Below are positions 2,421-62,181 of a stretch of DNA of 64,000 nucleotides, one piece after another (position 1 is the stretch's first letter; each line of letters begins with the position of its first letter). The translations under genes were made by a program, and so were the position numbers. Below the pieces are notes generated by a model that searched no databases, had not been told where the DNA came from, and saw only the letters and a list, made by a program, of their open reading frames with translations. The stretch is from Strigamia acuminata (lineage: Eukaryota): NCBI GenBank assembly GCA_949358305.1, contig OX442314.1, positions 186,001 through 250,000 of the forward strand. Direction: 5' to 3'.

Positions 2421-2737
2421 ATTTTCAAGGTAAGCAAGAGTCAGAAGTGACTGAAGTGACGGAACTAATGATGTCGGCCAGCTGATGGTACGGCTGACTT
2501 AGCTCTGGCATTCAGCTGATGTGAGTTAATTGAGCGGTTGCTGATTTGTGGCTGCTGCTGGTTGAATTGTCTGCGCCCACGGGCCAAATGACTAAAAGGG
2601 TGGTTTGTTGTTTGTTTGTTTGATCAGTCAGGCTATCCAAGTCGGCCAGTGAATGGCTCGGCGGGCTTAGCTCTGGCATCATGCTTAGTGTTTGTTTAAT
2701 TTTTTTTTATTTCTTAAATTATTTTTATATAAAAAAA

Positions 2738-5700
2738 ATGAAATCCATTTAGATTCATTCAGTGCTCAGGATGAATAGATACAAAGTCAAGAAATGCGTA
2801 GAGTTTTTAAAAGGAAAAAGAGAAAATGGACATTTATCTAAGGATTTCAAGTTAAAGATCAAGTTAGAACAACTCTTGGCAAAATGCCGAGAATATGATG
2901 ATTTTGTGAACATCGAGCCTCGGCCGTATTATCTTTATAAAAATATCTTTGACGGACAAGTGCTTGACTACTTTGTCGAATTCGACGAAAGGATTTTTGA
3001 CATAGAAGACGTGATGAAAGACGCCACTCCAAATATCCGTGCATTGGCAGCAGAAGTTGCAGCCAGCATGAATTCGTGCAAAGTGAGCGTTATGATGCTA
3101 TTGAGATATCGGCATTCCCTGAAGACGTCGACTGATCAACATCATTGGTACCGGGCCGATCCGTTCGTGATGCATTCGGACGATGTTGACCACATTCTGG
3201 ATTCAGCTGCGAAACAACTGGCCATACAAAATGCCGAATTTGTCGAAACTCACGACTATTTATATTACCTTTGTGTGAACGAGATTAAAATTGGTTTTGC
3301 TGCTTTACACCAGAAAGGTGGATGGTACAAAGATGTTCCGTCATTTCCGTTGAGTTTGAACAACGATTTGCCAGCCGTCATTCGCAATAAGAAAGCGGTG
3401 TTAACATTTAAAATTGAGTTGCAAAAGTCCTTTGTTTGGGCTGTTCTTGCATCTATACATCCTGTAGCCAATAATGCCGAACGCATATCTAATTATTTGA
3501 AGTATGAGAACGAATTGAACTTACAAGGCTTTGAATTTCTGTTGACTTACAGAAACGTAGAAAAATTCCAGTCGCAGAATCCAGATATCGAAGTGACTAT
3601 TTATTTTTGGGTCAGCAATTGTGTGCAAAGATATTTGACTGTACACAGAAACAGGAAACATCACGTCGATCTATTCTTCTACGGTAACAACTGCTACGGA
3701 CTTGTGAGGAATCTAAAACGTTTGCTCGGTTATTTTCCATGTCACTACTGCGATAACCAATTCAAGAGCATTGTGGGCAGAGACAAACACCTGACAGTAT
3801 TCCACGCCGTTCCCGAAGAAGAAGAATCATCCTATCAGGAACTGGATGAACATCTGCGCAGTAAAAAGGCCGTCATAAATGTCCAGAACTCTGATCAAAA
3901 AAGTTTTTTGTGGTCCGTATTGGCTGCCTTGTATCCGGCGCCCGACCATGTTAGCAGAGTGGGTTATTACGTACAGTTTATGGACAAACTCAATCTCAAA
4001 GGGCTAGTTTTTCCCGTGGGGCCGAAAGGAGTGCTTACATTCGAAAGACGAAATGTAAGTTTGAACATTAATGTATTTGAGTTGCTGCCCACGTCACGGA
4101 TTGTTCCGATAAAAGTGGATATTCAGACGAACCGCCTTACCACTATTAATCTACTGAAGAAACAAAATCATTACATGTGGATCAAGGATTTCTCACGACT
4201 CATGAGCGTCGGTGATGGCAACAAGCGGTATTATTGCATGAACTGTATGAATGGGTATTCCAGCGCCAAAGTGCTCGTTAAACATAAACATTACTGCGGA
4301 AAAAACACTCCTTCCGCCACTAAATGTCCTAAAGAAGGAACAATCTGTACGTTCAAGAGTGAGAAAAAAAAATATCCTATACCGTACGTTTGCTACGCTG
4401 ATTTTGAGGCATTCTTAGTGCCTGATGTGGAGACCGAACCCACTTTACATTCGGACACCATTAATTCTCACGTTCCATGTGGTTATTCTTTTAAAGTGGT
4501 GTGCACGGAGAACGAAGCTTATTCCAGACCGTTACAGCTGTACAGAGGTCCGGATGCCGTCGATCATTTTTTGCAATCGTTGCGTGCAGAAATTAAAGCC
4601 GTGGTTTGTCAATTTTCTCAATTGGAAACACAATTTGATACCAAAATGATGACTCCGCTTCAATGGAACGAGTATAGAAATGCAACAACGTGTTTCTTAT
4701 GCGGTGGCGAGTTCTCCGAAGATGAAGGTTGGACTAAAGTCTTGGATCACAACCATTTCACCGGAAGGTTTCGCGGAGCTGCACACGGCAAATGTAACCT
4801 TAACTACCATTGGCGGAGATCTGTGCCGGTAGTTTTCCACAATGGAAAAAGGTATAATTTTCATTTGATATTTTCACATTTGACCGTCGAGACAGAAAAA
4901 GTGACCGTCATTGCCGAAAACTCGGAACTATACAAATCATTCACGCTGAGAATCAATACCAGCGATGATCCAAAAGTGCCCCGTTACGTAACGTTAAAGT
5001 TTTTGGATAGTTTCCAATTTCTCGCGAGCAGTTTATCCAATTTGGCAAAAAAATTAGAGAAGTCACAGTTTGTTGTCTTTCGAAGCGAGTTTAAGGGCGA
5101 GGAAATTGATTTTCTGTTGAGGAAAGGAGTATACCCTTACAGATATATGACCGGTTGGTCAAAATTTCAAGAAGATAAACTTCCGCCGATAGAAGAATTT
5201 GAGAACATATCCGCTGACGAATACCAATATGCTCAGTTAGTTTGGAAAACGTTGGGAATTAAAGACATGGGCGAATATCACGATTTATATCTGAAGACTG
5301 ATACTCTGTTGTTGGCGGATATATTCGAGCAGTTTAGGAAAATGTGTTTGAATCACTACAAGCTGGACCCCTGTCATTATATCACGTTTCCGAGTCTGTC
5401 TTGGGACGCAGCACTGCTCATCACCAAAGTTAAATTGGAGCTTCTGTCTGATCCAGATATGTACGTTTGTCGAACAAGGAATAAGAGGCGGTGTTGCCAC
5501 AATCAGTCAACGCTATGCCAAAGCTAATAACCCTCTTCTGGCATCAGGATACGATTGTGAGAAACCAGAGAGTTACATTGTCTATTTGGATGCGAATTCC
5601 ATGTATTCCTGGGCAATGAGCAAACCGTTACCCGTTGGCAACTTTGCCTTCGACGATAATTTAGCCGAATGGACGCAAGAAAGGATTTTGAAAATGGGAG

Positions 5701-6782
5701 AGAACGATACGATGGGATGCATCTTGGAAGTGGATTTGGGATATCCGCAAGAACTGCACTTGACCCACAATTGTCTGCCTTTGGCTCCGGAAATGATACG
5801 TTCAGCGGACGACATTTGCCCCAGATTAATCCCGCATTTGCAAGGTCGTTGTAATTACATTCTGCATTACAGAGCTCTGCAATTGTACTTGTCCTTGGGC
5901 ATGACGTTGATGAAAATAAAAGGAGTGCTGACGTTTGAGCAAAAACCATGGCTGGCCAAGTATATCGAACTGAATATTGAGAAACGGAAGTCCGCTACCA
6001 GTGATTTTGAGCAGGAATTGACGAAATTAGCTAACAATTCGGTATTTGGAAAAACTCTGCAAGACGTGAGAAAATATAGACAATTTTATCTGGTGAATAA
6101 TCAGAAAGACTTTGATAAACACCTCAACTACGCCGGTTTCAAAGGATATAAAGCTTTTACTAGTGGTCTGATGTTGGTTGAACGTCGAAAGCTGGAATTG
6201 ACGTTAGACAAACCTATTTACAGCGGTTTAACTATCCTGGACTTGTCTAAATGCTTGCTATATGACTTTCATTACAACGTCATGAAAAAAAAATTCTCAG
6301 ACAAGCTGAGATTGCTGATGACGGATACGGATAGTCTGATGTATGAAATAGAAGCTCCTTCGGTCTACTCGTTCTTTAGAGAAGAAATACCAGAAGTGAT
6401 GGATCTGTCTAATTACGACCCACCCGATGGCAGAAACAGGCGTGTCATAGGATGCTTTAAAGACGAGACTGCCGGCGAGCCGATAGAAGAGTTTGTAGGG
6501 CTAAGAGCCAAATGTTACGCTTATAACGTGAACGGAAAAACGAGCATGCGGTGTAAAGGCATAAAGAAGGCCGTTGTGGAGCAAGAGCTGGACTTGGAGG
6601 CGTACAAGAAGATATTGTTCGGAGAACGGGAGGCCCACAGATTGAAATTTGAAACGATCAAATCAAAACTGCACGAACTCACAACGGTCAAGGTGGACAA
6701 ATTGGCATTGTCGGCGAAAGACAAGAAGCGAGTGATATTAGAAGATTGTATTCATACCAAGGCTTATGGTTATGTTGATTAA
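2738..6782 (+). pseudogene. Protein-primed family B DNA polymerase (pPolB) with a duplicated N-terminal module and an endonuclease VII-like insert; frameshifted
   Basis: ExoI YADFEA, DHNHFTGRFRGAAHGKCNL, LLRKGVYPY, YLDANSMY, KLANNSVFGK, MTDTDS, EFVGLRAKCY. A frameshift at ~5465 (DPDMY/FVEQGIRGG) joins ORFs 2762-5527 and 5586-6782. In-frame upstream ATG at 2738 is followed by TAG at 2750. Confidence 0.93.
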
Positions 6783-6786
6783 AATT

Positions 6787-8709
6787 TTAATTATTAAATA
6801 AATTAAAGTGAATAAATACTTGATACGTTCCTGGTATTTTACCAACTTCCTCAGCTTGCCCTAAAACTTTGAGCATTTCTTTAGCTTTTATTTCTACCGG
6901 AGGATCGCAAACAAAATTCTGGAGTATCTTACTTTCTTCGAGGACAATGTCAGCAATCTCAACATAGTCAGGTAAGCCATCCACCAAAGTCAAATAACCA
7001 ATTGTTATGTTTCTAATGCCAACTTCTGAATATACTTCAGCTGAATGCATGTTGTGCAACATAATATCTATTTTTGTAATTTCACATCTTCTAAATGTTG
7101 TAAAAACTGATGTTTCTTTATCATCATAAGAAAACCGTACATTTCCATCTTCACTGGGTGGTAGATAATTTTCAAATTTCACAATATATTTATCAACTTG
7201 TATAACTTCTTTAAATACAACATTTATAATGTCTTCTATTTCGGCTTTATTTTTATCTATGTCTGCTCTAATTTGCTCAGTGCCTTCTTTTTGTATTGTC
7301 TGTTTGATGTGTTCTATTTTTGCATTCATTTCAGCCTTATGTGCTTCTAGCATTGCTTTAATTTGCTCATCATCATCCTGTAAACCCTGTTTGATCTGCT
7401 CTATTTTTGCAACTATTTCAGCCTTATATAGATCTAGCATTGCTTTAATTTGCTCATCATCCTCTAAACTCTGTTTGATGGATTCTATTTCTGCAGCCAT
7501 TTCAGCCTTATATTTATCTAGCATTGCTTTAATTTGCCCATCATCTTGTAAACTCTGCTTGATGCGCTCTATTTCTGCAGCCATTACTAGCATTGCTTTA
7601 ATTTTCACATCATACTGTAAACTCTGTTTGATGTGCTCTATTTCTTCAGCCATTTCAGCCTTAAATGCTTCTAGCATTGCTTTAATTTGCTCATTGTCCT
7701 GTAAACTCTGTTTGATGTCCTCTATTTCTGCAGTCATTTCAAACTTATATGCTTCTAGCATTGCTTTAATTTGCTCATTGTTCTGTAAACTATATTTGAT
7801 GGTTTCTATTTTTATAGCCATTTCAGTCTTAAGTGCAACTAGCATTGCTTTAATTTGCCCATCATCCTGAAAACTCTGTTTGATGAATTCTATTTTTGCA
7901 ATCATTTCAGCCTCATGTGCATCTAGCATTGCTTTAACTTGCTCATCATCTTGTAAACTCTGTTTGTTGCGCTCTATTTCTGCAACCATTTCAGCCTTAT
8001 ATGCATCTAGCATTGCTTTAATTTGCTCATCATCCTGTAAACTCTGTTTGTTGCGCTCTATTTCTGCACTCATTTCAGCCTTATGTGCATCTAACATTGC
8101 TTTAATTTGCTCATCATCCTGTAAACTCTGTTTGATGCGTTCTATTTCTGCAACCATTTCAGCCTTATGGGCATCTAGCATTGCTTTAATTTGCTCATCA
8201 TCCTGTAAACTCTGTTTGATCTGCTCTATTTCTGCAGTCATTTCAGCCTTATGTACATCTATGCTCGCTTTAACTCGCTCATCGTCTTGTAAACTCTGTT
8301 TGATGCGTTCTATTTCTGCAGTCATTTCAGCCTTTATTTGTCCATCATCCTGTAAACTCTGTTTGATGTGCTCTATTTCCACAGCCATTTCTGCCTTATG
8401 TGCATCTATGTTTGCTTTAACTCGGACATCGTCCTGTAAACTTTGTTTAATATGGTCGTCGACTCGAGATTTCATATCTTCCATAAGCACAGCAGAACCT
8501 GCAGCTGCCGGGTTTGGTATTCCAACGTTAAAATCTTTTTTTAGTTGTGCGATTTCGTTTCTGTGGCCAAACACCATTCGCCTAACCTGTTCGTGTTCAT
8601 CATCCGTTAAATTACTTCCGTCTCGTTTGGCAATTTTTCGTGGGGTCAATCCAAATCTGTGCACTGGATTTAAGTAGAAGTCGTCTCTCGCCTTATTAAC
8701 GCTCCCCAT
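6787..8709 (-). CDS. Polinton protein with ~14 tandem 28-aa coiled-coil repeats and a non-repetitive C-terminal domain (function unknown; possible fibre)
   Basis: Open 640-codon frame from ATG 8709 (MGSVNK); repeat IKQSLQDDEQIKAMLDAHKAEMxAEIER (84 bp) at ~7250-8450. Confidence 0.8.
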   Translation of the reverse strand: MGSVNKARDDFYLNPVHRFGLTPRKIAKRDGSNLTDDEHEQVRRMVFGHRNEIAQLKKDFNVGIPNPAAAGSAVLMEDMKSRVDDHIKQSLQDDVRVKANIDAHKAEMAVEIEHIKQSLQDDGQIKAEMTAEIERIKQSLQDDERVKASIDVHKAEMTAEIEQIKQSLQDDEQIKAMLDAHKAEMVAEIERIKQSLQDDEQIKAMLDAHKAEMSAEIERNKQSLQDDEQIKAMLDAYKAEMVAEIERNKQSLQDDEQVKAMLDAHEAEMIAKIEFIKQSFQDDGQIKAMLVALKTEMAIKIETIKYSLQNNEQIKAMLEAYKFEMTAEIEDIKQSLQDNEQIKAMLEAFKAEMAEEIEHIKQSLQYDVKIKAMLVMAAEIERIKQSLQDDGQIKAMLDKYKAEMAAEIESIKQSLEDDEQIKAMLDLYKAEIVAKIEQIKQGLQDDDEQIKAMLEAHKAEMNAKIEHIKQTIQKEGTEQIRADIDKNKAEIEDIINVVFKEVIQVDKYIVKFENYLPPSEDGNVRFSYDDKETSVFTTFRRCEITKIDIMLHNMHSAEVYSEVGIRNITIGYLTLVDGLPDYVEIADIVLEESKILQNFVCDPPVEIKAKEMLKVLGQAEEVGKIPGTYQVFIHFNLFNN

Positions 8710-9047
8710 TTTTTTAATACGAATAAACACAAATGTCCGCACGTGACTTCGTCAAACGATTGATATTGATAAACGTTATATTTTATATTGTTTCCCAGGT
8801 AATGGTACAATTCAATAGGAGGCGGAAGATCGCCGAAACTATTGAAGTATAATTTATCTCGCTTATTTTTAGCGTACGCCACCCAATGGCTACCACTTTG
8901 CAGATGCTTATTCAAATTAACAATCCCGCATTCGAAGGGTCTGGCTTTGACGGGCAATGTGTCTCTGGAGAACACGCCTCTGAAGAATGGAATATTCATT
9001 TGTCTAGCCAATTTGCCCAATTGCAGGGAATCCAGTGGTTGAATCAT
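8670..9047 (-). CDS. Adenain-like cysteine maturation protease (Polinton PRO)
   Basis: FRGVFSRD, IVNL...GSHWVAY, YFNSFG, YQ...TCGHLCL; ATG at 9047 overlaps the upstream TGA (ATGA). Confidence 0.88.
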   Translation of the reverse strand: MIQPLDSLQLGKLARQMNIPFFRGVFSRDTLPVKARPFECGIVNLNKHLQSGSHWVAYAKNKRDKLYFNSFGDLPPPIELYHYLGNNIKYNVYQYQSFDEVTCGHLCLFVLKKWGALIRRETTST

Positions 9048-9524
9048 TGCCCCATCTTTCCCGCCGCCGACGAGCCGTACGGTTTCAAGTAGAAACCTTT
9101 TCCAGTTTTGCGTATCCGTAATTTTTTTTTTTAACGACTGTCGTAGACCTTTGCCTTCAGTGGCTAAATTGTGGCGCTTGGCTTCATCGACCATTTCCTT
9201 ATTTGTTTTCGCCGAGTCTACGGCTTTAGCGATCCCTGCCGCACCCCCAGCCAGTCCTCCCAATGCCCCCAATAATGGAAGCAGTAATGGAAAGAATCCA
9301 CCAGTTTGTCTAACCTGTTTCGTAGGTATGCTTAGAGTCATTCCTTTCTTTTTAGAACCGGCCTTTTTTATCTTATTTATCTGTCTATCAGTAAGAGACA
9401 AGCCATGATTGCCGTTAAGTTGTTTATACTTCAATCTTAAATGTAGGGGTATCTTTTTTTTCATGGATTTGGATACCTTTCGTTGCTGATTGGGGGTTAA
9501 CGCTACCTTATGTATTTTATACAT
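9044..9524 (-). CDS. Basic core/membrane-active virion protein with GGF(F/L)P hydrophobic segment (adenovirus pX/pVI-like motif), frameshifted in an A11 run
   Basis: Lys-rich N-terminus, QTGGFFPLLLPLLGALGGLAGGAAGIAKAV; removing one A from the run at 9122-9132 restores ...KTGKGFYLKPY...GQ* ending at 9044. Confidence 0.7.
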
Positions 9525-9543
9525 CTCTTATTTTTTTATAACT

Positions 9544-10384
9544 TTAATATAACACTTCGATTTTGCCTTTGTCCAATTTCATATTCATCAATCTGTCGCC
9601 TATTATCAAAGCGTAGGCTTTAGTATTGGCCGGGACTGCCGTTTCAAATTTCATTTTTATTTGCACGTCGATTATGCCGGTTTTCAGCCTCTCGCTCTGT
9701 TTCGAGCAATCGATCACGATCAGCGGGTAAAGTTTCGCATAATCCCACGCGTTGAACATTATATCGGATGCGCCGTAATAATCTTTCCTGAATTGGATGC
9801 ACGATCCAGAAACCTACTGAAATTGCTATTTTCAAAGTTCTCGTTCGAGTCTAGATAGGGATACCGCTCGGAGTTCAGGTACGCGTGAACTTCGTTGACT
9901 TTAACGGTGTCGAATACTGCCGTATTTTTGGTTTGGTAGTTTCTTTTATCGGTCTGAAATCCGACAATGATGTACCGCGGTTTTTCGGAAGTGCTGGTGG
10001 TTACCACTCGCCAGGCATGCTCCGTGGTTTGCGGCAAGTCCGACATTTCGAACGACCAATGACGAAACGCTAAGGGAATATTCACGCCTTTATCCATGGC
10101 TGTGAGAAGTCGACTCTTTTGCACGTCGGATGGAATAACGTGCGGCATCAACCAGTACAGTTGTTGGAGAACTATTTTACCTCCGGGTATGGCTTGTGCG
10201 GCTCCAGCCACGGTTTTGGACGCGGCTTTAAAAATGGCATCATCGTTGTGCGTTCTCATCAAAGTTAATACTTGTTTCGCGCCGTAAATGACTTTGTTAT
10301 AGTCTTCGAAAAAACCCATCAGATGGGTCAGTGGCACTAACAACGAAAAGGTACCGTGCTTTTTTGGCAACAAGTTGTATAACC
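9544..10384 (-). pseudogene. Polinton major capsid protein (double jelly-roll), C-terminal part
   Basis: VPLTHLMGFFEDYNKVI, EKPRYIIVGFQT, YLNSERYPY, PLIVIDCSKQSERLK; frameshift at ~9800; cut at 10384 by an LTR element. Confidence 0.88.
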
Positions 10385-12899
10385 TGTTGGTCAAAAATAG
10401 CCCAAAGTGTGTCGATGTGATATAGGATCACATTTGATCTTTTGTTTATTAATTATCCAAGTGTATTTGTTGTGATAATTCAATTCTCGACTTCATTTAT
10501 GATTATTTATATATTTACCTCGTTTTGTGTACTTAAGCATGGAGTACCATGCATTCTCTAGTTTTTTTGTTTAAGTAACGCCTAATTCCGACACCAGGTG
10601 TCATCCTTGTACTTTTCACCATCCAAGATGGCCGCGCACACGGTTTGGTGCTTGTCTGTTTCTCTCCACCTGGAAAATGGACATTTATGTAAGATTTCCT
10701 TATGTTTTATTTATTTATTTATTTATTTATTTGATCGCACTCCAAAGGAGTAAAAAGAAATGAGACACAAGTATGATACAATGATACAATGATTATTGAA
10801 CCGATAATAAGTGACGATGTAGGCGCCGATGGAAATGGCGGCAATGAGACGCACACATAGCTGACGAACATTCAAGGGCAGAGGAACGAAGCTCGATGGG
10901 GAGATTGTTCCAAGACGAGAAACAACGAAATGGGTACGATTTCGACAAATATGCAGTGATATGCGTGGCAGGTTCAAACATGTGTCTACGAGTGGTGCGA
11001 ACGAAGGCCTCCGGGTGGTATTGGTTGGTGATGAAATGCGCGGGATGAGCAGGGTCGCGGAGAGCATCACACAATGATGACAAATCAAAGAGGAGCAGTA
11101 GGTTGACCAATGACAATATCTTATGTTTTCTGCAGTGCGGTGTGATGTGGTCGTACCTCGGGATTTTAAAGGCGAAACGAAGCACGAGGTTATATGCAGT
11201 AATGAGGGGAATTTTAAATCTATGAGGGGACGAATTCCAAATCGGGGAAGCATACGTGATTTTAGGATGAATTTTGGTTTTAATATATGTTGACAATTCA
11301 GGCTGGGACAAAACTCGACGAAGTTTGTTAACAATGAAGCCTGACCGGGAGAGGAATTTTGTAAGGAGAGATATGTGTGGGGCAAATGTCAAGTGGGGGT
11401 CTAAGGTAAGACCAAGAATGGAAACCGAGTCGGTGGGGTTGGAGGACCGAGCATTAGGAACTCGTTTGAAAGTGACAATATTGGTTTTAGAGGGGTTGAG
11501 GCACATATCATGAGACGTATACCAGTCAGTTAGAATGGAGATGTCGGCTGAAAAGAGGTCGGAGGAAACAATATTAAGGTTTGATGGAGTCGTGCGGGAT
11601 AGAAAATTGTCATCAACGAACGAACGAATGCTGGAAGTCAGTGGAAGATCCAGAACAGGATTGGAGACAATGTTGTACAGCAAAGGTCCGAGCACAGAGC
11701 CTTGGGTCACACCACGGGTAGAAGGAAAAACAGTCTTTTTGGGGTCGGAGGCAATTTGGCATGACCGGTTGGAGAGGTACGACGAAAACAGTGACAGCGG
11801 GATAGGACCAATGGAGAGCTTTTCCAACGAAGAGAGGGTATGGGAGTGAGACGGGGTATCAAAAGCCTTGGATACATCAGTTTTCGCGATGTGAACATGA
11901 CGATGGGAGTCACAGCCACGAACGATTTCGAAGTAAAGAGTAAAGATGAGCTTCAGGGCGCTCGAACCGGGACGGGAACCATACTGATTAGGGGAAGAAT
12001 TTTTGGTGATGGTAGGGCGGATTTGAAGGAGGATACAACGATCAGCTAATTTTGATAAGGGAGGGAGAGAAGAAATAGGGCGAAAGTTAGAGATGAGGGA
12101 TTTATCACCACCTTTGTAAAGAGGAGTGATGACGGACTGTTTCCAGGCAGTGGGGTAGGTGGATGAGTCAATGATAGTATTGAAAATGTTGGTGAGGGGA
12201 AGGAGAATCGATGGCAACAGGTGTTTGATAGCAATACCAGGAATGCCGTCAGCAGAGAACTTCGATGTGAGGTTAGTATTCAGGGCAGCAAAGGCAATGT
12301 CAGCTGGAGTTACATACTTAAAGGAATTAAATGACGGTAATAAACACGGGGTTGGAGAAAAGGAAGGTGGAAAGTTAGGGATGGTAGTGTTGAGAGGGTT
12401 GTCGAGGAACTTAGCATACAACTCATAGATATTAGGGGAGTCGGGAAGACATGTAGTGGACGTCCTAGGTTTAACAAGGCGCCAAAAATTTTTTGAAGCC
12501 ATGACTAGTTGACGTTTATTACGCCGTACCATAGCCTTGAAGTGGCGACAGGCAATTTTGTGATCCGTGATGCAACCAGACTTACGACGGAGGAAGAGCA
12601 TAGTTTTGGTTTTTTGAAGAGTAGAAAGTTCAGCAGTCCACCAAGGTTTAGGGCGTTTGCGAGATAGGGAGGACGGGGATGCGTGTTTCAATAACAATTT
12701 ACGAATTTGGGTGCAAAAGAAAGAAACTTTGAAGTCAATGTCAGTCGAAGCGGTAAGAGGCTGCCGGGGTGCCGTTCCAACGGCGAATCGTCCAAGGGCG
12801 AATCTGGCCATTCGGACGAAAGGCGAATTTTGACTTTATTCTGTCCAAAGCAGTCCCAATGGCAAATTTCTCCCAATTCGCCATTGGGACTGCTTTTGG

Positions 12900-13292
12900 A
12901 CCTTTCTAATGGCGAATTGGTAACCGATTCGCCATTGGAAACGCAGAAACGTTTCCAATGGCGAATATGTGCGTGTTGAAATTCGCCGTTGGAAACGCAA
13001 AAACGTGTCTAATGGCGAATAGGTGTAGATTGAAATTCGCCGTTGGAAACGCAAAAACGTTTTCAATGGCGAATACGTGTAGGTTGAAATTCGCCGTTGG
13101 AAACGCAAAAACGTTCCCAATGGCGAATACGTGTAGATTGAAATTCGCCGTTGGAAACGCAAAAACGTTTCCAATGGCGAATACGTGTAGGTTGAAATTC
13201 GCCGTTGGAAACGCAAAAACGTTTCCAATGGCGAATACGTGTAGGTTGAAATTTGCCATTGGAAAGGGTTTTGCGTTTCCAACGGCGAATTG
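12900..13292 (+). repeat. 54-bp hairpin-unit tandem array, left arm of the foldback element
   Basis: Unit AAATTCGCCGTTGGAAACGCAAAAACGTTTCCAATGGCGAATACGTGTAGGTTG. Confidence 0.92.
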
Positions 13293-26684: not shown

Positions 26685-26693
26685 GTTATTTTT

Positions 26694-27416: not shown

Positions 27417-27431
27417 GTCATTCGTGTTTTT

Positions 27432-28754: not shown

Positions 28755-29418
28755 TTTTTAAAAATGGGTAAAATTTATTTTTATATCTCCCGCTCGACAT
28801 AGACTTGGTCTTGTCGATCGTGAGAAAGCCGAACGTATCATCGTCCCAACATGATTTACACATGTCTCTGAAACAAACGTACGTCATGTCCGTTCCAACA
28901 TGGTTGTCAAAAACGTGTTTCATGTTTCTTTCGTCTTGTCTGAACATGATTATTAAATTGGCGTTGTCTCTTATCACCTGTTTTGGGATTCGGGAATAAG
29001 TCTGACACAAGTAAAAAGAATCCACGTTACTATGTCGGCCCTGGGCAAAATATTTCTCAATATTATGTTGCTTGTCGGTCATCACATCGTCAAACACAAA
29101 AATAGACTTGTTCACGGATTTATCAAAAAGTTGTTCGGGAGTCGGCACATCTTCGTTGCTCGGGAAGAAATGAGCTACCTGTTCGCCCAATTCCGATTCT
29201 AGATCCTCGAACAACTCTCTTAACCGCTCGTATTTTGGTTGAAATAAAGTTTTAGAAAACACCATCAGCTTGTCAAACCGTAACCAGTGCAGGAAGTTTA
29301 GCAACAGATTCGTTTTCCCACATTCGGCCGGGCCACACATGATGCATCTTATGTTTTTTGACAAAATCGACTTATCACATTTATCCAAACGCCCCGTGTC
29401 AAAATTTATGACATTCAT
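28741..29418 (-). CDS. A32/FtsK-like genome packaging ATPase
   Basis: Walker A GPAECGKT, Walker B FVFDD, QGRH...LCQTYSRIPK..IRDN. Confidence 0.92.
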   Translation of the reverse strand: MNVINFDTGRLDKCDKSILSKNIRCIMCGPAECGKTNLLLNFLHWLRFDKLMVFSKTLFQPKYERLRELFEDLESELGEQVAHFFPSNEDVPTPEQLFDKSVNKSIFVFDDVMTDKQHNIEKYFAQGRHSNVDSFYLCQTYSRIPKQVIRDNANLIIMFRQDERNMKHVFDNHVGTDMTYVCFRDMCKSCWDDDTFGFLTIDKTKSMSSGRYKNKFYPFLKNEHE

Positions 29419-29453
29419 TTTTTATATTCCCGTAATAAAAAAAGAAGACAAAC

Positions 29454-29968
29454 ATGTTTTGCGTTAAATGCAAAAAGTCTACTCCTACCGGCACGTTGGA
29501 AATGGGTGTCACTAAGAATAAGAGAGCCTACAAAAGAGGTAAATGCTCCAAATGTGGGACCTTAAAATATCAGTTCATTAAAAAAAAAAATCTCCAGCAA
29601 CCGGCAAAGGACTCTTTAATAAACTAATCAATAAACTACCGGTAGAAGTGCATATCCCCGGGTACAACTATTGCGGCCCGGGCACAAAATTGGATAAACG
29701 TTTAGCTAGAGGTGATAAAGGCATAAACCCATTGGATGAAGCGTGCAAGCTGCACGACATTGCTTACATAAATGAGAACTTAGAAGCCAGACACGAAGCA
29801 GACAGAAAGTTGGTCGAAGCGTGTGTTTTAATCATCACCGATCCAACAGTCAGTTCAAGCACAAAATTAGTTGCCAAAGCAATCAAAGCAACGTTCAATA
29901 CCAAACTTAAACTGGGAATGGGACTAAAAAAAAAAAAAAATGCCCGACATAGAACAACTGGTATCTGA
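29454..29968 (+). pseudogene. Zn-ribbon (CxxC...CxxCG) plus parvovirus-type phospholipase A2 domain protein, frameshifted in an A11 run
   Basis: MFCVKC...GKCSKCGT; adding one A at 29580-29590 gives ...TGKGLFNKLINKLPVEVHIPGYNYCGPGTKL...LDEACKLHDIAY. Confidence 0.8.
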
Positions 29969-30634
29969 ATTACATAAGCCGGCACGTAGGCATTACGTTA
30001 GACGTCCGGTCGTATCTTTTGCAATCAACGACTTATGGCAGATCGATTTAGTCGAATTGATACCTTTTTCCCATGTAAACAAAGGTTATAAATACTTATT
30101 AACGGTTATAGATGCGTTCTCTAAATATGCGTATGCGGTTCCCATCAAATCAAAGACTGGCAAAGACGTAACCGCCGCATTTGAAAAGGTGCTTGTCAAA
30201 GCGGGGAATAAGGGGCCGGTCAACATGGCATCCGATTGGGGAAAAGAATTCTACAATTCCCATTTCAAGGCACTTGTCAAAAAGTTCAACATCAACCATT
30301 TTTCCACACACTCGCCGCTGAAAGCGAGCATGGTCGGACGGTTCAACCGTACACTCAAAGAGCGCATGTACAGACATTTTACTTTGAAAGGTTCAAGGAA
30401 TTGGATTACTGTCTTACCTCAATTGTTGACCCGTTACAACTCTTCGGTTCATAGAACGACCAACATGAAGCCCAAAGACGTGGCTCCTGAACATGAAAAG
30501 GCGCTCAGACTAAAATTACTTCCCGAACCGGCAACGTCCAAGCCTAAATTCAAAGTGGGCGACCGAGTGCGTATTTCCAAATCCAAATCCATATTTGACA
30601 AAGGGTTTTTGCAAAATTGGAGTAATGAAATCTT
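29940..30634 (+). pseudogene. Polinton retroviral-like integrase, N-terminal part
   Basis: ELHKPARR, WQIDLV, LTVIDAFSKY, SDWGKEF, KASMVGRFNRTLK (catalytic E appears as G); cut by an LTR element. Confidence 0.9.
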
Positions 30635-32226
30635 TGTTGGGTTGGCGTTTTGCTGTTTGTCCCCTTCACGCGCGTGTGTTGTTAAATGCACCTTTCTGGT
30701 TTAGTGCATTTGATGTGCCGTTGTTTATTGACCCGTGCATGAGATCGGTCAATCTAGTGTTTATATAATGCGTATTATATTGCTGCGACCGATCGTTTAT
30801 TTGCAATGGCACATCTCCTATCGTCGCCTGCTCAAAAGAGCAGTTATTGTTTACACTGTTCTGGTTGAGTTATCTTTTAGTTTTGTCATTCTGTAAAGAA
30901 TGAATCAATGTGTTAAAGCATTGATTTGTTCTGTCATTTCATTGTGCTTGAAATCGAGGGCGATTAGCCTCGAACAAGGTTTTATGTTTACACATACTTT
31001 TGTAATAAAAGATGGCGGACGCGTGTCCGATTTATCCGCCCAGCCAAAATGATGTTTCGAGTTATTTAGACAGCGCACAGGCCATCACAACTCTTCAAAG
31101 TGGTAGCAGAGGATAAAAACGATCTGGCAACGACGTTTTTGGAGAAGAAACGGCCATTTTGCGACTACGAGAAGTCGCCGAGTGTGCGCCCGCCCAGCTC
31201 GTCGTAAAAACGAGTTTTCGGTGCGGATTTCAACGCAGAATCGTCGTGACAACGTGTGCGGACGATTCCTCGACACCAGCGGATCGTTTGGATACGTTTT
31301 TGGTTCGGAAATTTATGTTTTTCGTCGCCTCGACGTCGTGCAAATAAACGACGGTCGAGATTTGTGTTTCGAGAATTTCTACGTGTGTGTGCGACGAGAA
31401 TCACTTCGTGGGAATTTTCATCAGTGTTGTGTGCACAAATAAGCACACAACAAGGATACAAACGACGGTAGGACATTATTTTGTCGATTTTCGTGCGAAA
31501 TAAGCACGTTTGGACGTCGTCATCGAAGATTTTCGCGACGGCGGCCATTTTCTTTTTGGATCAATCGTCGCGACCGACGATTTTTGCAACACGCAGAGAA
31601 GTCTGCGGCCACCGAGAAGTCCTGCACACGTTAAGCGTGTGTGCAGGCATTATTTTCCGTGATTTGAACCCCGGAGTTCATCTCACGAAGGCGCGGACGA
31701 GCGCGGCGTTGATTTTCCCGCAATCGCACGGAAGTGTGCACGCGGACGGCACGACAGCCCATTTTCCGTGCGTACGACGACGTGGGAGCAACGTTTCGTC
31801 CTCGAAGGACGTTATTGCGACGCTTTGCACCCGCAATTCGTTGCAACTTTATCATCTTAACACCGAAAAAGTGTATTTTTTGATTTATTTATTATCTCGT
31901 GAAACTTTGTTATATATTAAGGTTTTTGTTGTGGGATATTTAGCATATTCTCCACTCTTCGGGCAGTCGCCCACGTGGAGTCTCATTTTCAATTGCGGCT
32001 GTCTCGTGGCAAGCCAGTCGTCCCGCGGGCACTAGGTGACTCGGTCGGAAGCTGGTAGAGTACCCAATTGAAGTATTTTCTCCTTCTTAAAAGGATTGAC
32101 CCCCGGGAAGTGTGTATTGCTCTCCTTGCCTTTTGGGGGCTATTTGTACATCCGTGCGACGAATTTACGTGATTTGTGTGTTTTGTGCTTCAGTTCTTCA
32201 CTGAATTTCGTCGCAAATTTTTCGAC

Positions 32227-35200
32227 ATGGCGTCGTACGACCGCCATGATGATTATAAAGATGTGAAAAAGTTGTACGGAACCAACTACCCGACTTGGAG
32301 CGTCCAAGTACAGCTCCTTCTCCAATCGTACGGAGTGTGGGGCCATGTGACCGGCAAGACGAAAGAGCCGCCGGCCGGATCACCGTTTCGAGAGACAAGG
32401 GATTTTGAGAAAGGCGAGGAAAGGGCTCGCTCCACCATTTGTCTGGCGTGCGGCGAGGCCCAACAGGTTGTGGCTGTCGCCCACGCTACTGCGAAGGAGG
32501 TGTGGGAGGCACTGAAAGCTGCCTACCAGCCCACCACACGGGCGCGTAAAGCCCGTCTCCGCCGGGAATTTTTGGACATGCGGTTGCATGAAAACGAAGA
32601 GATGTTTGTTTTCACCGCACGAGTTGACCGAAAGGTCGTGCAACTTGCCGACGTTAAGATTAAAATTACGGACGAGTTTCACGCCTTTCAATACCTCGAC
32701 CTGTTGCCACCCCAATACGAACCGGTCAAGCAGACGGTTTATCACTGGGGTGACGCAGAGTTTACGGCAGCAGCGGTCAAGGAACGCCTGGTAGGCGAAT
32801 ACAACCGCTTACATGTAACGACCGACGAGTTTGGCGTGCCTTCCAAGACGCCATTGGAGAACACTGGCGCTTTCTTTAACCAAGGCGGAAGACAACGCGG
32901 ACGTGGCGGAAATGCGCCCAGCGGCCCACGCATCTGTTTCACTTGCGGTGGGACGGGCCACTTCGCCCGTGAATGCCGCACTCCGCCGAAACAGCAATTC
33001 CAAGCAAAAGGAAACCAAACTGGACAATTCAGAGGCAATCCTCGGGGCAAGGGACGTGGACGAGGCCAGCAAAAGGCCGCTGTCACACAGGCTGACATAT
33101 TCAGTGACTCTCCAGTTTCATATTACTCAGCAGCAGTTTGGCTTCAGCAGCAACCCCCTGTGCCGGCTTCCCACGTGTCTCACGCGAATTATGATTCGCA
33201 ATGGTACGTCGACACAGGAGCGACGGACCATTTCTTCTTCAATAAAGACTGGTTCTCCGACTTCAAGCCATTAACTGGCCATGTGCAACAGGGAGAAGGA
33301 AAGTCAAGAATCGAAGGGATAGGAAATATAACATTGACATCAGTTTACGGAACTCGCACCCGTGCACTTACATTGCAAAATGTATTTTATGCACCCAACT
33401 TTAGGAAGAACTTGATTTCGTTGGGTCGCACGGATGAAGCTGGGGCAACGACCATGATTAAAAATGGCAAAATGGTTATTTATAACGACAAAATTGATGA
33501 CCCTTCCATCACTGCGGAACGCACGAGTGATCGGATGTACAAGGTCAATTGTCGTATTTCTCATGTGAACACTGCCGCATTACCTGCGCAACAGGCTGCG
33601 ACAGTGTCTTCTAGTCCGCTCATAAAGGGCGATGAAGTTGTAAATTCAATACTAACATACCCTAGTTTTAAGGACGCATTAACCCAAAATTCGAGTGAGT
33701 CAGGGAAACCTGCACCAGCGATTAAGGGGCAAGCGAATGTTGCGAATAACGCGCCTGCGAACGTTACGGACAATGCGCAAGCGAATGTTTTGAATAAAAT
33801 TAAGACAAAGACTGCCAATGCCTCCAAACAGGCAAGTTCAATTGTGCAGAACAAGGCAGAGAATGGGAATAATTCTATCAATGGGGTTAAAACTTTTGAC
33901 AAGAAAGATAAGGCTCAAACGATGGACATTTGGCACTCCCGCTTAGGGCATTTAAATGCAAAAGGAATTGCGGGTTTAGAAAAGTCAACTGATGTTTTTG
34001 GGCTGAAACTCTCGAATAAGGAGTTGTCGACGTGTGACTCTTGCGCCAGGGCGAAGAGCACACGTGCTAGTTTTCCCCCAATAATTGGAATTACTACGAA
34101 AGGTATTCTGGAAATAGTGCACTTAGACGTGTGGGGCCCCGCTCCAGTTCAAACATTGGGTGGGGCGTACTATTATCTCATTCTCATCGATGATTTTTCC
34201 CGCTTTATGTGGATAATTATCATGAAACGGAAAAGTGACGTTTTGGGACATTTTAAGCGGTGGCTACTTGAAGTTGAGCGAACAACCTCTAAGAAGGTAA
34301 AGGCCATAAAAACTGATAATGGAGGGGAGTTTATATCCAGACAATGGGACAATTATGTGGCGACAATTGGGCTTAAATGTATGAGAACGAATGCGTACAG
34401 CCCAGAAATGAATTCGGTCGCCGAACGGGCGAACCGTACCATTCTTAATGGTACTCGGGCACTTCTTTTTGAGAATAAATTCCCCCCCCACTTTATGGGC
34501 AGAGCTTGCCGTTTCAGTTGTATATCTGAAAAACCGTTTTCCACATACGGGAATTGGTGGGAAAACACCTTATTCTGTGTTTTATAATAAGAAATTGTCT
34601 CTTCGCCATGTCAAGTGCATTGGCTCATTAACTTATGTCCATATCCCATCTCAGACTCGGGGTGGGAAATTACAAGACAGGGCATGGGCTGGGGCATTAA
34701 TTGGATACGCCGCTTCTACACGCGGCTATAGAATTTGGGATCCGAATAAAAATCAGGTGTTTTTGTCTAAACACGTCAAAATTTTTGAAAACAATTTCTG
34801 GTTTGAATTAGGGACGGCCACGTCGCCTGAATTTGGGGATGACTTTGATACGTCAAGTTCGGACTCGTTTAATGGGTCATTTTCTGACGACGACAGTGTT
34901 GCTGGCGACCCAATAATTCAGAAAGCTCCGGAGATTCCGGAACCCCCTCCTGCGATACAGGAAGTTCCACAACCTGCTCCGCAGCAAAAAGTGAAACCCG
35001 CATTGCCCACGACCCCAAAGCCTGCTTTTAGACCTGAATTGAGGCCAGTCGCTAAACAGGCAGCTCAGCAACCCCCACTTATGCCCGTTGAGGGGAACCC
35101 TATTCTTGGGGATAGAGATACAGGGGATGAGCCTGTTGAAGAAATTGGTGGGGCGAAGGGGGATGATGGGAATTACTCCAACGACTATCCTGATGATGGG

Positions 35201-37034
35201 GAACCTGAAATTCCCCCTGGGATCCAAACACGACGTTGATCACGATCAAAGAAAAAGAAAGGGAACGTGATGTCACACCCAGAATTACTGCCGTTAAATA
35301 TGGCGAAATGGGAACGACGCGCATCCGTCCGCAAAGACGGAGCGACGGCGGGACAAATAGATGTTGTTTACATCACGCCCTTAAAGGATAAGATAAGAAG
35401 TCGAGTTGATATCGCACGGTGGTGCGATGAAGAAGGGTACGCATATGATGCGACCTTATTTGACTTTAAGACATTAGAGGGGGACGGTGAACCGTTAGGG
35501 TTTGCAGGTTTCTGCGCCGTCGAGCCAGAAACCTACGAAGAAGCCATGTACCACATCAAGCGCCCTGATTGGATTAAAGCTATGAGGGAAGAAATTGATG
35601 TGTTTGATGAAAGAACGGTTTACAAGGAAGTTGACAAAACAACTTTAGACGAGGGTACGACTCTCTTGGGATCGAAATGGATATATAAAATGAAGCGCGA
35701 CCACACAGGGCTTTAAGCAAAAGCCCGGAGTTGACTTTACGGAGGTGTTCTCCCCCGTCGTCAACTTCGTGCTAGTAATAGTGTTCTTTTGCACTTTGGT
35801 AATACTCAAGGGATGGCGGGACTTACACTTGGATATCAAGGCCGCGTACCTTTACGGGGACCTAGATACGGTACAGTACATGGAGATCCCCAAGGGATAT
35901 CGTACCGCCCATAATCAGCATAAATGCTGGATGCTTTTAAAAGCACTTTATGGATTACACCAGTCCGGTCGTATGTGGTACCAGGTTCTCCACATACGGC
36001 TACTTGAATTGGGCTTTCAACCGTTGCTGGGTTTAAACTGTGTCTATGCCCTAGACAACGATGCAATAGTCATCTTTTACGTGGACGATATCGTGCTGTT
36101 TTCCAAGGATGACTATGTGGAACAATGCGTTTTAAAGTGGTTACGGGAATCGTTTGAAGTAGTGAGTCTGGGACCCGTAACTTTACTTTTAGGAATTGAG
36201 TTTGATAGGTCCGGGGGCATGATTAAAATCCACCAACGGAAATATATTGAAAAGCTTTGTAAAGCGTACGGGATTGACTCGTGCCATCGAGTGAAAGTTC
36301 CAGTAACCCCGGAAACCATGATTCAAAGTGTAAGAACCGGGGAAAAAGTCGATACTTCATTCCCGTACAGATCTCTGGTCGGAAGTCTATTGTTCATCGC
36401 CAGCCGAACCAGACCCGACATACTGTTTTCAGTAATAGTGCTTTCCCAGTATAACGAGACACATTCGACGCGCCATGTCAATATGTTACTGCAGGTCCTA
36501 CGATATTTGGCCACCACGTCGAATTATTCGATTAACTTGTCGAACTGTAAAAACGAGGATTTGACAGTTTACACCGACGCGTCGTTTGCCCTAGATCAAG
36601 ACAGACGACGAAGCTTTGGGGGACATATTGTCTATATGGGTGGCATTCCCATCTCGTGGAATTGCCACAAACAATCGATGACCTCCCTGTCGATCATGGA
36701 GAGCGAATTTCTCGCCGTGGTCGATGGGGTGAAAGAAGTTATTTGGCTCGAGCGCCTTTACGACGCGAAAATAATGTTTTGTCTCGAGCGAAATACGCCC
36801 TGTGTTTTTGCGGATAGCCAGCCGGCTATCCAATACTGTAAGAATAGGATTGAGAACAGGGCGAATAAACATATAGACGTGAAGCTTCACTTCGTTAGAG
36901 ATTGGTTCGAGAAAGGAACGTTTTTGATCGAGCATGTTTCCGGCGAATTAAATGTCGCCGATATTCTAACGAAGTGGTTAGCTAAATCCAGACTGAACGC
37001 CCTATGCGAATATATCTTTGTGGTCGACAAATAG
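32227..37034 (+). pseudogene. Copia 2 gag-pol with a frameshift (~34485), in-frame TGA (35237) and a small RT deletion (~35708)
   Basis: CFTCGGTGHFAREC, WYVDTGAT, WHSRLGH, HLDVWGP, KTDNGGEF, YVDD, YTDASF. Confidence 0.92.
35285..35470 (+). other. Methyl-CpG-binding domain (MBD) within Copia 2 pol
   Basis: LP...KWERRASVRKDGATAGQIDVVYITPLKDKIRSRVDIARWC...LFDF closely follows MeCP2/MBD spacing. Confidence 0.87.
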
Positions 37035-37514
37035 CTAAACAAAGGGGGATTTGTTGGGTTGGCGTTTTGCTGTTTGTCCCCTTCACGCGCGTGTGTTGTT
37101 AAATGCACCTTTCTGGTTTAGTGCATTTGATGTGCCGTTGTTTATTGACCCGTGCATGAGATCGGTCAATCTAGTGTTTATATAATGCGTATTATATTGC
37201 TGCGACCGATCGTTTATTTGCAATGGCACATCTCCTATCGTCGCCTGCTCAAAAGAGCAGTTATTGTTTACACTGTTCTGGTTGAGTTATCTTTTAGTTT
37301 TGTCATTCTGTAAAGAATGAATCAATGTGTTAAAGCATTGATTTGTTCTGTCATTTCATTGTGCTTGAAATCGAGGGCGATTAGCCTCGAACAAGGTTTT
37401 ATGTTTACACATACTTTTGTAATAAAAGATGGCGGACGCGTGTCCGATTTATCCGCCCAGCCAAAATGATGTTTCGAGTTATTTAGACAGCGCACAGGCC
37501 ATCACAACTCTTCA

Positions 37515-37778
37515 ATCTTTACAATTGATAGAGTAGACACGACGTATGAACCTCCAATTTTCAAATTGAAAGACAGTCTGGGAGAATCGATCGAAGGTTC
37601 CTTTTACCGTGAAGAACTGCAAAAGACCAAAACCGGGGTAGATGATCCCTACTTGATCGAGAAAGTCATTAGAAAAAAGAAAAACAGCGATGGCAGTTTC
37701 AAATACCTAGTGAAATGGGTCGGCTACGATCAGAAGCACAACTCATGGGTGGATGAACTCGTGGATATTAAAAAATGA
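37515..37778 (+). pseudogene. Polinton integrase C-terminal part with chromodomain
   Basis: Rejoins as NWSNEIFTIDRV; IEGSFYREELQK; YLIEKVIRK...YLVKWVGY...HNSWV. Confidence 0.9.
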
Positions 37779-37955
37779 ATAACGTGGAAATTTACAACTG
37801 GGCGAAGAATAAACTACGTATTGCCCATTTCAACAACGTGTTGCCCATCGATTGCCTGAAACCGCTCGCGAATCACCGGGGCAAGAATGAAAGCTTTGTC
37901 ATCAATTTAGACCCATCGATGGGTGGCGGTACCCATTGGGTAAGCTTGTATCACG
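37775..37955 (+). pseudogene. Second adenain-like protease, truncated
   Basis: MNNVEI...FVINLDPSMGGGTHWVSLY, then abrupt switch to Copia leader-like sequence. Confidence 0.72.

Positions 37956-54879: not shown

Positions 54880-62181
<7,302 letters not shown>

What the first reader, a model, noticed from the sequence alone, without database searches (positions are those of the whole stretch)
2726..37780. Nearly every Polinton gene is preceded by a T-A(6-15) motif resembling poxvirus post-replicative initiators
Seen in sequence, coding-strand context of starts: PolB TAAAAAAAATG (2730); repeat protein TTAAAAAAATG (8709); GGF protein TATAAAAAAATAAGAGATG (9524); MCP TAAAAAATAGCAACCATG; small ORF TAAAAAAATAACATG; penton TAAAAAAACACGAATGACATG; hypothetical TAAAAAATG (28754); ATPase TATAAAAAATG; Zn-ribbon TAAAAAAAGAAGACAAACATG; integrase T-A15-TG; protease 2 TTAAAAAATG. 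That is 11 of 12 starts; the exception (protease 1) has a TTA11 run ~75 bp upstream. Genes abut or overlap, and the divergent ATPase/Zn-ribbon starts are only 35 bp apart, leaving little intergenic room for Pol II promoters. Established: poxvirus intermediate/late promoters use TAAA(T), and RNA polymerase slippage there adds 5' poly(A) leaders; yeast linear plasmids behave similarly. Inference: this element may be transcribed by a helper (entomopox-like) RNA polymerase, i.e. be a virophage-like endogenous virus of an animal.
Basis: partly seen in the sequence, partly recalled or inferred. Interest (0 to 1): 0.85.

Follow-up and report, generated by a model that had tools for sequence, protein, structure and literature searches.

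The report
Polinton with helper-virus-style gene starts
A decayed virus-like jumping element (Polinton) in an animal genome has a T followed by six or more A's just before ten of its twelve gene starts, where many of its relatives have ordinary host promoters, which suggests, untested, that these genes are likely read by the RNA polymerase of a larger helper virus.

Summary
The motif is real.

Two corrections. The long PolB frame starts at 2771, so there the run is better read as a host TATA box with a correctly spaced Inr. The A11 run "upstream of protease 1" is coding sequence; that protease is likely made by a -1 frameshift (slippery site in 26 of 32 relatives).

Only 10 of 116 starts in other Polintons carry T+A5; 28 of 53 ATPase genes carry a TATA box at Pol II distance instead. 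A separate lineage (L089/L070/L092) has the run at 12 of 14 starts.

The layout (AT-rich core, spacer, TAAA at the start) fits cytoplasmic large-DNA-virus initiators, closest to vaccinia intermediate promoters. The late TAAAT is absent, the closest capsid relative lacks the run, and no helper or RNA was found. Helper-polymerase reading: about 0.45. "Entomopox" is unsupported. The scan noted a similar element in another genome (e1-8580207).

The parts
2726..2763 (+). PolB upstream region: TATA box (2726/2728) running into the A8 run, with Inr-like TCATT/TCAGT 29-33 nt downstream; likely host Pol II promoter
   Evidence: pairs (-45,-14), (-45,-10), (-43,-14), (-43,-10) relative to ATG 2771; relatives' spacing peaks at 32-33
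2771..6782 (+). protein-primed PolB, broken by a frame change near 5460-5530; two tandem vOTU-like repeats in the N-region
   Evidence: (PF03175 1.3e-9)
6787..8709 (-). 640-aa coiled-coil repeat protein (84-bp array), likely fibre-like
   Evidence: no family assigned
8709..8716 (-). T-A7 motif overlapping the ATG of the coiled-coil gene
8670..9524 (-). pX-like (GGF) protein and protease 1, one open frame in this copy; the A11 run at 9122-9133 is coding; G_GGA_AAG slippery-type heptamer and overlapping stop/start before protease 1 (ATG 9047)
   Evidence: (PF05829, PF00770 weak)
9531..9538 (-). T-A7 motif before pX/GGF (ATG 9524)
9544..10384 (-). major capsid protein, 3' part (frame-disrupted near 9760-9800)
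   Evidence: PF21738 8e-38
10385..25994 (+). Copia LTR retrotransposon inserted in the MCP gene (5-bp target duplication), itself holding a LINE and a long inverted-repeat DNA element
25995..26480 (-). major capsid protein, 5' part
26489..26495 (-). T-A6 motif before MCP (ATG 26480); a TATA-like word also lies 26 nt upstream of the T
26526..26684 (-). 51-aa small ORF between penton and MCP
26689..26696 (-). T-A7 motif before the small ORF; includes the penton stop codon
26694..27416 (-). minor capsid (penton) protein, 240 aa
   Evidence: homology to relatives' pentons; no Pfam hit
27427..27434 (-). T-A7 motif before penton; includes the upstream gene's stop codon
27432..28754 (-). conserved hypothetical protein, disrupted (stop near 28730, frame change near 27780, MITE)
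27536..27659 (.). 124-bp hairpin MITE with 8-bp target duplication; absent from other copies
   Evidence: joint 27527-27660
28754..28760 (-). T-A6 motif overlapping the ATG of the hypothetical gene, inside ATPase coding sequence; TATA-like word 25 nt upstream of the T
28741..29418 (-). A32-like packaging ATPase, 225 aa, intact
   Evidence: (PF04665 5.8e-7)
29418..29443 (.). divergent unit: T-A6 (- strand, 29418-29424) for ATPase and T-A7 (+ strand, 29436-29443) for Zn-ribbon; each run is the T-tract upstream of the other
29454..29940 (+). Zn-ribbon (DUF5679) plus PLA2-like domain, out of frame with each other at the A11 run near 29580 in this copy; one frame in L016
   Evidence: (PF18930 4.9e-8; PF08398 5.8e-13)
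29925..29940 (+). T-A15 motif overlapping the integrase ATG
29940..37778 (+). rve integrase with C-terminal chromodomain, split by a Copia element (30635-37514, 5-bp target duplication)
   Evidence: PF00665 3.6e-14; PF00385 1.7e-9
37769..37775 (+). T-A6 motif overlapping the ATG of protease 2, inside the integrase end
37775..37984 (+). second adenain-like protease, cut off near 37985 by retroelement-like sequence; no further Polinton sequence in the window

Best explanation
The T-A6+ run sits at ten gene starts of this Polinton and is likely the transcription initiator of one compact promoter per gene, predicted to be read by the RNA polymerase of a co-infecting cytoplasmic large DNA virus rather than by host Pol II. 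Shown: the run, an AT-rich block 9-20 nt upstream of it, the lack of TATA/Inr pairs at these genes, and such pairs in relatives. Inferred: transcription starts at the first A's and slips there to give short, possibly poly(A)-led 5' UTRs, as at vaccinia intermediate and yeast linear-plasmid initiators. PolB likely keeps a host Pol II promoter, which would give a two-stage programme: host-driven replication, helper-driven virion and integrase genes. Protease 1 likely needs no promoter because it is translated off the pX mRNA. The helper is not identified; a poxvirus is one candidate among several. This copy is broken by insertions.
For: Start specificity: 11 of 12 (10 of 12 clean) against 2 of 256. 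Present at the two divergent starts, which have no upstream co-directional gene; only A4 at the two convergent gene ends. Contrast with relatives: T+A5 at 10 of 116 reliable starts, and 0/5, 1/4, 1/5, 0/5 in the most AT-rich ones (L054, L065, L045, L056; 67-73% AT). 28 of 53 relatives' ATPase genes have TATA at -75..-28 (shuffle mean 4.3, max 11 of 1000), TATA-to-Inr spacing peaks at 32-33, and L023 PolB has a GT-AG intron; in the window only PolB has a TATA/Inr pair. The run is too close to the ATG (-6 to -18) to be a TBP box for its own gene. Bipartite layout: AT 0.80 at -20..-9 against 0.56 at 40 other T+A4 sites (p 4e-4), and 0.73 against 0.56 for the 7 sites that lie in or abut upstream coding sequence (p 0.02); this fits the vaccinia intermediate description (PMC11980589, passages) and the TAAAN/TAAAA slippage initiator of yeast elements (PMC6211774, passages). 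Recurrence in a second lineage: L089/L070/L092, 12 of 14 starts. No TBP, TFIIB or RNA-polymerase Pfam hit among the element's ORFs or those scanned from L089, L016, L070, L092, L014. Precedent: promoter sharing in mavirus/EMALE and PgVV (PMC8547959; 10.1101/2022.07.28.501842; passages) and PLVs in entomopoxvirus occlusion bodies (PMC11296320).
Against: No transcript data and no helper virus. Poxvirus late TAAAT at 0 of 11 sites. The element's own ATPase clade mostly lacks the strict run: L016 2 of 5, L015 0 of 2, L014 0 of 2, L051 0 of 3, L078 0 of 4 valid starts, and L078 is the sister in the MCP-piece tree (support 99) and penton tree (92); the motif-bearing elements do not form one clade. 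T+A5 is not depleted inside coding sequence (14 seen, 10.1 expected), nor is the poxvirus early terminator T5NT (2 against 3.7, p 0.22). MCP and the hypothetical gene have a TATA-like word 25-26 nt before the T, which fits Pol II initiation inside the A-run. 5 of 11 sites read AATAAA or ATTAAA and several contain the upstream stop codon. 25 of 53 relatives' ATPases also lack a TATA, so its absence is weak evidence alone. The right end of the element is missing, so an element-encoded factor cannot be excluded.
Confidence: 0.45

Rival explanations
1. The run is a translation signal. Host Pol II makes a few long mRNAs (one leftward block, one rightward block), and an A-rich tract before each AUG lets ribosomes start or re-start at internal genes.
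For: Genes are packed in two co-directional blocks with overlapping stop/start codons. The run ends at or within 11 nt of the AUG. Polintons already use translational tricks at the pX/protease junction. Poly(A) before an AUG is said to regulate initiation (PMC6211774, passage citing its refs 57-58).
Against: Does not explain the invariant T before the run, the AT-rich block at -20..-9, or the run at the first genes of both blocks (ATPase, Zn). No TATA/Inr pair was found to drive either block. Equally packed relatives lack the run.
Confidence: 0.2
2. The run is an initiator for host Pol II at unusual core promoters, possibly steered by an element-encoded or other viral TBP-like factor, as noted for other Polintons in earlier findings of this scan.
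For: PolB has a host-type promoter. MCP and the hypothetical gene have TATA-like words 25-26 nt upstream of the T. The element keeps an integrase with chromodomain and sits in nuclear DNA in many copies. T-A is a pyrimidine-purine start.
Against: 8 of the 10 clean sites have no TATA at that distance and no shared box was seen 20-40 nt upstream. No TBP/TFIIB hit in the sequence at hand, though the element and the loci are incomplete.
Confidence: 0.2
3. The run is a by-product of gene packing: the upstream gene's stop codon and poly(A) signal (AATAAA/ATTAAA), or Lys codons, overlapping an A-rich arthropod start context.
For: 5 of 11 sites contain A[AT]TAAA; the small-ORF and penton sites contain the upstream stop; both convergent ends read ATTAAAA; A-runs coding Lys are common in the element.
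Against: PolB, ATPase and Zn have no upstream co-directional gene. 6 of 11 hexamers are not poly(A) signals. In other Polintons T+A5 lies near the stop in only 9 of about 150 gene ends.
Confidence: 0.12
4. Chance or AT bias.
For: Four of the sites lie in AT-rich spacers.
Against: 0 of 20,000 composition-matched shuffles reach 11 of 12; more AT-rich relatives lack it.
Confidence: 0.02

Closest known systems
Animal Mavericks/Polintons (Alpha 'adintoviruses'; PMC8502044, passages)
   Same: pPolB of PF03175 type with OTU-like N-region, rve integrase with chromodomain, A32/FtsK ATPase, double jelly-roll MCP, penton, adenain, PLA2 and pX-like genes.
   Different: Start-proximal T-A6+ runs instead of the TATA+Inr promoters seen in many relatives; two proteases; duplicated vOTU-like domain. 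No passage on promoters was seen in that paper.
Vaccinia intermediate/late promoters (PMC11980589, passages)
   Same: TAAA at or just before the ATG, AT-rich block 15-19 nt upstream, T frequent at -10/-11 (6 and 8 of 11).
   Different: No TAAAT at any of the 11 sites; templated A-run of 6-15 instead of 3; closer to the intermediate class than the late one.
Yeast pGKL linear-plasmid initiator TAAAN (PMC6211774, passages)
   Same: TAAAA initiator; pPolB-bearing linear element; slippage there gives poly(A) leaders.
   Different: pGKL encodes its own RNA polymerase and has an upstream conserved box; an ATNTGA match (consensus recalled) lies upstream at only 1 of 11 sites and no polymerase gene was found here.
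ASFV initiators TA(+1)NA / TA(+1)TA (PMC7163114, passages)
   Same: T-A start, short AT-rich 5' UTR (late median 9 nt), AT-rich motif 4-12 nt upstream; 3 of 11 window sites and several L089-clade sites read TATAAAA.
   Different: Most window sites read ATT/TTT-A6, not TATA; ASFV leaders are AU repeats.
Mavirus/EMALE and PgVV helper-dependent elements (PMC8547959; 10.1101/2022.07.28.501842; passages)
   Same: Integrated capsid-encoding elements without their own RNA polymerase and with one shared motif before genes.
   Different: There the motif was matched to a known helper's promoter in protists or algae; here the host is an animal, the MCP is Maverick-type and no helper is known.
Entomopoxvirus-associated PLVs AHEV_PLV1/2, CBEV_PLV1 (PMC11296320; parts 2-3 of the text, passages, supplement part 1)
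   Same: Adenain, PLA2-like, pX/mu-like and A32 genes; arthropod setting; proposed poxvirus parasites.
   Different: They lack an rve integrase and have highly diverged capsids. The main text has 0 occurrences of 'promoter', 'motif' or 'transcription'. Their DNA was not held, so their upstream regions were not tested.

Membership tests
Maverick/Polinton | protein-primed PolB | tested here: met
   PF03175 1.3e-9; frame-broken
Maverick/Polinton | rve integrase | tested here: met
   PF00665 3.6e-14, chromodomain
Maverick/Polinton | capsid module: DJR MCP, penton, ATPase, protease | tested here: met
Maverick/Polinton | terminal inverted repeats and target duplication | tested here: inconclusive
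   the left-end region 2381-2740 has no inverted partner in the window; the right end lies beyond further insertions or is lost
Poxvirus late promoter | TAAAT(G) initiator | tested here: not met
   0 of 11 sites
Poxvirus intermediate promoter | TAAA near the start with an AT-rich upstream core | tested here: met
   11 of 11 TAAA; AT 0.80 against 0.56 at -20..-9; a low-information consensus, so meeting it does not prove identity
Poxvirus intermediate/late promoter | [quoted passage not shown] | not testable with these tools
   no RNA holder listed
Virophage-like (helper-dependent) element | no own RNA polymerase | tested here: inconclusive
   none among the ORFs present; element incomplete
Virophage-like (helper-dependent) element | motif shared with an identified helper virus; co-occurrence with it | not testable with these tools
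   no genome held; pattern scan uninformative
Host Pol II TATA+Inr promoter | TATA box 26-35 nt before an Inr, upstream of the ATG | tested here: not met
   met for PolB (2771) only; no pair at the 11 other gene starts
Entomopoxvirus-associated PLVs (AHEV/CBEV) | diverged MCP lineages, no rve integrase | tested here: not met
   this element has an rve integrase and a Maverick-type MCP piece 34-40% identical to ordinary relatives

The most novel reading that the evidence does not exclude
Animal Mavericks split into two lifestyles that can be read from their promoters. Most are autonomous nuclear viruses with TATA+Inr promoters, but at least two lineages have switched their virion and integrase genes to pox-like initiators and live as integrated virophages of cytoplasmic large DNA viruses of arthropods, keeping a host promoter only for the polymerase. 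They would be a heritable, helper-triggered antiviral in an animal.
Probability: 0.3. Interest if true: 0.88.

Novelty: new variant of a known kind. Interest (0 to 1): 0.6.

Why it matters
How animal Polintons are transcribed, and whether any depend on a helper virus, was not addressed in the papers I found. This element and its relatives give a sequence-level split (host TATA+Inr against a start-proximal T-A run) that short reporter constructs and 5'-end mapping can test directly. If the helper reading holds, endogenous virophage-type elements, so far shown in protists and algae, extend to animals, and the motif becomes a marker for unknown large DNA viruses of their hosts.

Tried and rejected
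Own genome not held, so host genes could not be used as a control; only the four retroelement starts in the window served.

No RNA holder listed; this says nothing on expression. Whether other copies share the stop after the PolB ATG at 2738 remains open: I have no read data for that stretch.

Searches for more motif-bearing members gave little. Viral-contig scans with the ATPase alone, A2 and A3 found nothing. The L089 MCP gave one unrelated hit. Genome contigs gave 4 weak prokaryotic hits. The PLA2 scan gave 7 loci, 3 of them contigs already held.

A DNA-pattern scan for the L070-type divergent motif gave 43 AT-rich matches, none with a downstream ORF of 60 aa or more and none with Polinton homology: uninformative.

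Tests for depletion of T5NT, T-runs, AATAAA or splice donors in coding sequence showed no difference between motif-bearing and other elements. Mimivirus early AAAATTGA was at 0 of 11 sites, baculovirus-type TAAG at 2, poxvirus early TGAAA upstream at 1 (these consensus words are recalled, except AAAATTGA, seen later).

The Atlas search of the coiled-coil protein gave only weak hits. The representative search and the second Atlas search did not complete. The ATPase tree is the quick version; the careful search did not finish.

Literature: 10 searches listed no paper describing such a motif in animal Polintons. Subscription journals are mostly not held, bioRxiv supplements are closed, and I saw only part 1 of 72 of the PMC11296320 supplement. 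I ran no paper search on the frameshift site.


Full report
WHAT IS THERE. Window 2430-37985 holds one decayed Maverick/Polinton: pPolB on +; coiled-coil protein, protease 1, pX-like GGF protein, MCP, small ORF, penton, hypothetical and ATPase on -; Zn-ribbon/PLA2, integrase-chromodomain and protease 2 on +. It is split by Copia elements in the MCP gene (10385-25994) and the integrase gene (30635-37514), by a hairpin MITE, and is cut off near 37985; no further Polinton sequence lies in the window. Four runs of one organism hold many related copies (1160, 486, 203 and 9 contigs laid at 80% identity or more). The host is an animal, likely an arthropod: serpin, dynein and SpoU fragments, and a Copia with a methyl-CpG-binding domain, a type I recall from centipedes and spiders.

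THE OBSERVATION. All quoted contexts are present. Shuffles of the same upstream windows average 1.1 and never reached 11 in 20,000. None of the 4 retroelement starts has it. Eight more T+A6 runs lie away from starts.

TWO CORRECTIONS. First, PolB. The ATG at 2738 opens only four codons; the long frame starts at 2771. Relative to 2771 the run is a TATA box with Inr-like words 29-33 nt downstream (two at 33 or more), the only such pair among the element's genes. Whether the stop is shared by other copies is open. Second, protease 1. The A11 run at 9133 is inside the pX/protease frame. In 26 of 32 relatives an in-frame X XXY YYZ heptamer precedes the protease, which lies in the -1 frame, against 3 of 128 control junctions; the control is lenient, because those junctions often have no overlapping gene. 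The window has G_GGA_AAG and an overlapping stop/start there. The exception is therefore likely a gene that needs no promoter. L070 and L089 lack the slippery site; L070 has the run before its protease.

RELATIVES. An ATPase alignment fetched 93 loci in 70 clusters. I kept starts only where the alignment began near the N-terminus. Outside the two groups below, T+A5 is at 10 of 116 starts (all ATGs: 347 of 10,897), and the most AT-rich elements score 0/5, 1/4, 1/5 and 0/5. Instead, 28 of 53 ATPase genes with 100 nt of upstream sequence have a TATA box at -75..-28 (shuffle mean 4.3, maximum 11), with TATA-to-Inr spacing peaking at 32-33 nt, and L023 PolB has a GT-AG intron. Many Mavericks therefore look Pol II-transcribed, and this one differs. 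A second group, L089/L070/L092, has the run at 12 of 14 starts that I picked from ORF lists (all ATGs in those loci: 21 of 287). It is a separate long-branch clade in the quick ATPase tree. The window's own ATPase clade (support 99) is mixed: L016 2 of 5; L015 0 of 2, with a TTTATTTAAATAAA palindrome between divergent starts; L014 0 of 2; L051 0 of 3; L078 0 of 4 (a fifth position was mis-set and dropped). L078 is the sister in the MCP-piece and penton trees. The trait is thus patchy, gained twice or lost, which neither proves nor excludes a helper switch.

ANATOMY OF THE MOTIF. W-W-T-A6+, then 0-11 nt, then ATG. Positions -20..-9 are AT-rich (0.80 against 0.56 at 40 other T+A4 sites, p 4e-4; 0.73 for the 7 sites in or abutting upstream coding sequence, p 0.02); -8..-4 are not (0.47). 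At the divergent pair each run is the other's upstream T-tract. The run is too near the ATG to be a TBP box for its own gene. This resembles vaccinia intermediate promoters (TAAA plus an upstream AT core; PMC11980589, passages), the yeast TAAAA slippage initiator (PMC6211774, passages) and ASFV's short AT-rich starts (PMC7163114, passages). It fails the poxvirus late test: TAAAT at 0 of 11. These consensuses carry little information, so the resemblance does not name the helper.

AGAINST. No RNA, no helper. No depletion of the run or of T5NT in coding sequence. TATA-like words lie 25-26 nt before the T at MCP and the hypothetical gene; five sites double as A[AT]TAAA; both convergent ends read ATTAAAA. 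Tight spacing is no argument: L078's divergent starts touch without the motif. Earlier notes of this scan report Polintons with their own TBP/TFIIB. I found no such Pfam hit here or in the ORFs scanned from five relatives, but all are incomplete, and a TBP box would sit about 30 nt upstream, not at the start.

VERDICT. A real, lineage-restricted signal at gene starts. Most likely a per-gene initiator for a helper virus's polymerase (0.45; a poxvirus in particular perhaps half of that), with a host promoter kept at PolB. Rivals: translation signal on polycistronic mRNA (0.2), unusual Pol II initiator (0.2), packing by-product (0.12). The element is a member of the Maverick/Polinton family. It is not a member of the described entomopoxvirus-associated PLV lineages (PMC11296320; parts 2-3, passages and supplement part 1 seen; no promoter analysis in the main text). 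Ten literature searches listed no description of this motif in animal Polintons. The scan noted a similar case in another genome (e1-8580207); that note is unchecked, is not independent support, and its claim of a polymerase subunit has no counterpart here. Other papers seen as passages: PMC8502044, PMC8547959, PMC11071308, PMC8363768, 10.1101/2022.07.28.501842, 10.64898/2026.10.13.758929, 10.1101/2025.04.19.649669.

Noticed in passing
window 9047-9070 (-) and the pX/PLA2X-protease junction of 32 relatives (e.g. L041, L045, L054, L056, L065, L078, L079): A conserved slippery heptamer (A_AAA_AAC or A_AAA_AAA) in frame at the end of the pX/PLA2X gene with the protease in the -1 frame: 26 of 32 clusters against 3 of 128 control junctions. 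Likely a family-wide programmed -1 frameshift giving a pX-protease fusion; not mentioned in PMC8502044; no paper search made. May deserve its own follow-up.
   Followed up: partly
relatives' ATPase genes, e.g. L009, L011, L025, L029, L053, L071, L099: Canonical TATA + TCAGT-type Inr promoters at 32-33 nt spacing in many animal Mavericks: sequence evidence for gene-by-gene host Pol II transcription.
   Followed up: yes
window 3340-4290 (+): The pPolB N-region has two tandem vOTU-like repeats (27% identical, E 2.5e-17); both lack the catalytic cysteine that 6 of 6 distinct relatives keep.
   Followed up: partly
window 35270-35713 (+); similar stretch by eye near 23480-23640: Copia retrotransposon carrying a methyl-CpG-binding domain between integrase and RT (PF01429, 1.8e-9); the Copia at 10385-25994 has a similar stretch without a Pfam hit.
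   Followed up: partly
window 8670-9050 (-) and 37775-37984 (+): The element has two adenain-like protease genes, one in each transcription block.
   Followed up: no
window 12920-18400: Long inverted-repeat DNA element with 54-bp subterminal repeats and nested inverted arms, inserted in a LINE inside the Copia.
   Followed up: no
window 27536-27659: 124-bp near-perfect hairpin MITE with CAGGG ends and an 8-bp target duplication; empty sites seen in other copies.
   Followed up: partly
L015 168-201: Divergent Zn/ATPase starts in a 52% GC element separated only by a palindrome, TTTATTTAAATAAA, which gives TAAAT on both strands 12-18 nt before each ATG; closer to the poxvirus late word than the window's motif.
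   Followed up: no
L089 4011-4024: The convergent ATPase and integrase ends overlap in a 14-nt palindrome, with no AATAAA within 80 nt of either stop.
   Followed up: no
window 54900-62250: Several 91-97% identical duplicated fragments of a dynein heavy chain gene interleaved with A-rich 10-mer repeats.
   Followed up: no
window 1036-1812: 315-bp inverted-repeat element between two copies of a repeat that precedes the 10-bp satellite at 1980-2420.
   Followed up: no
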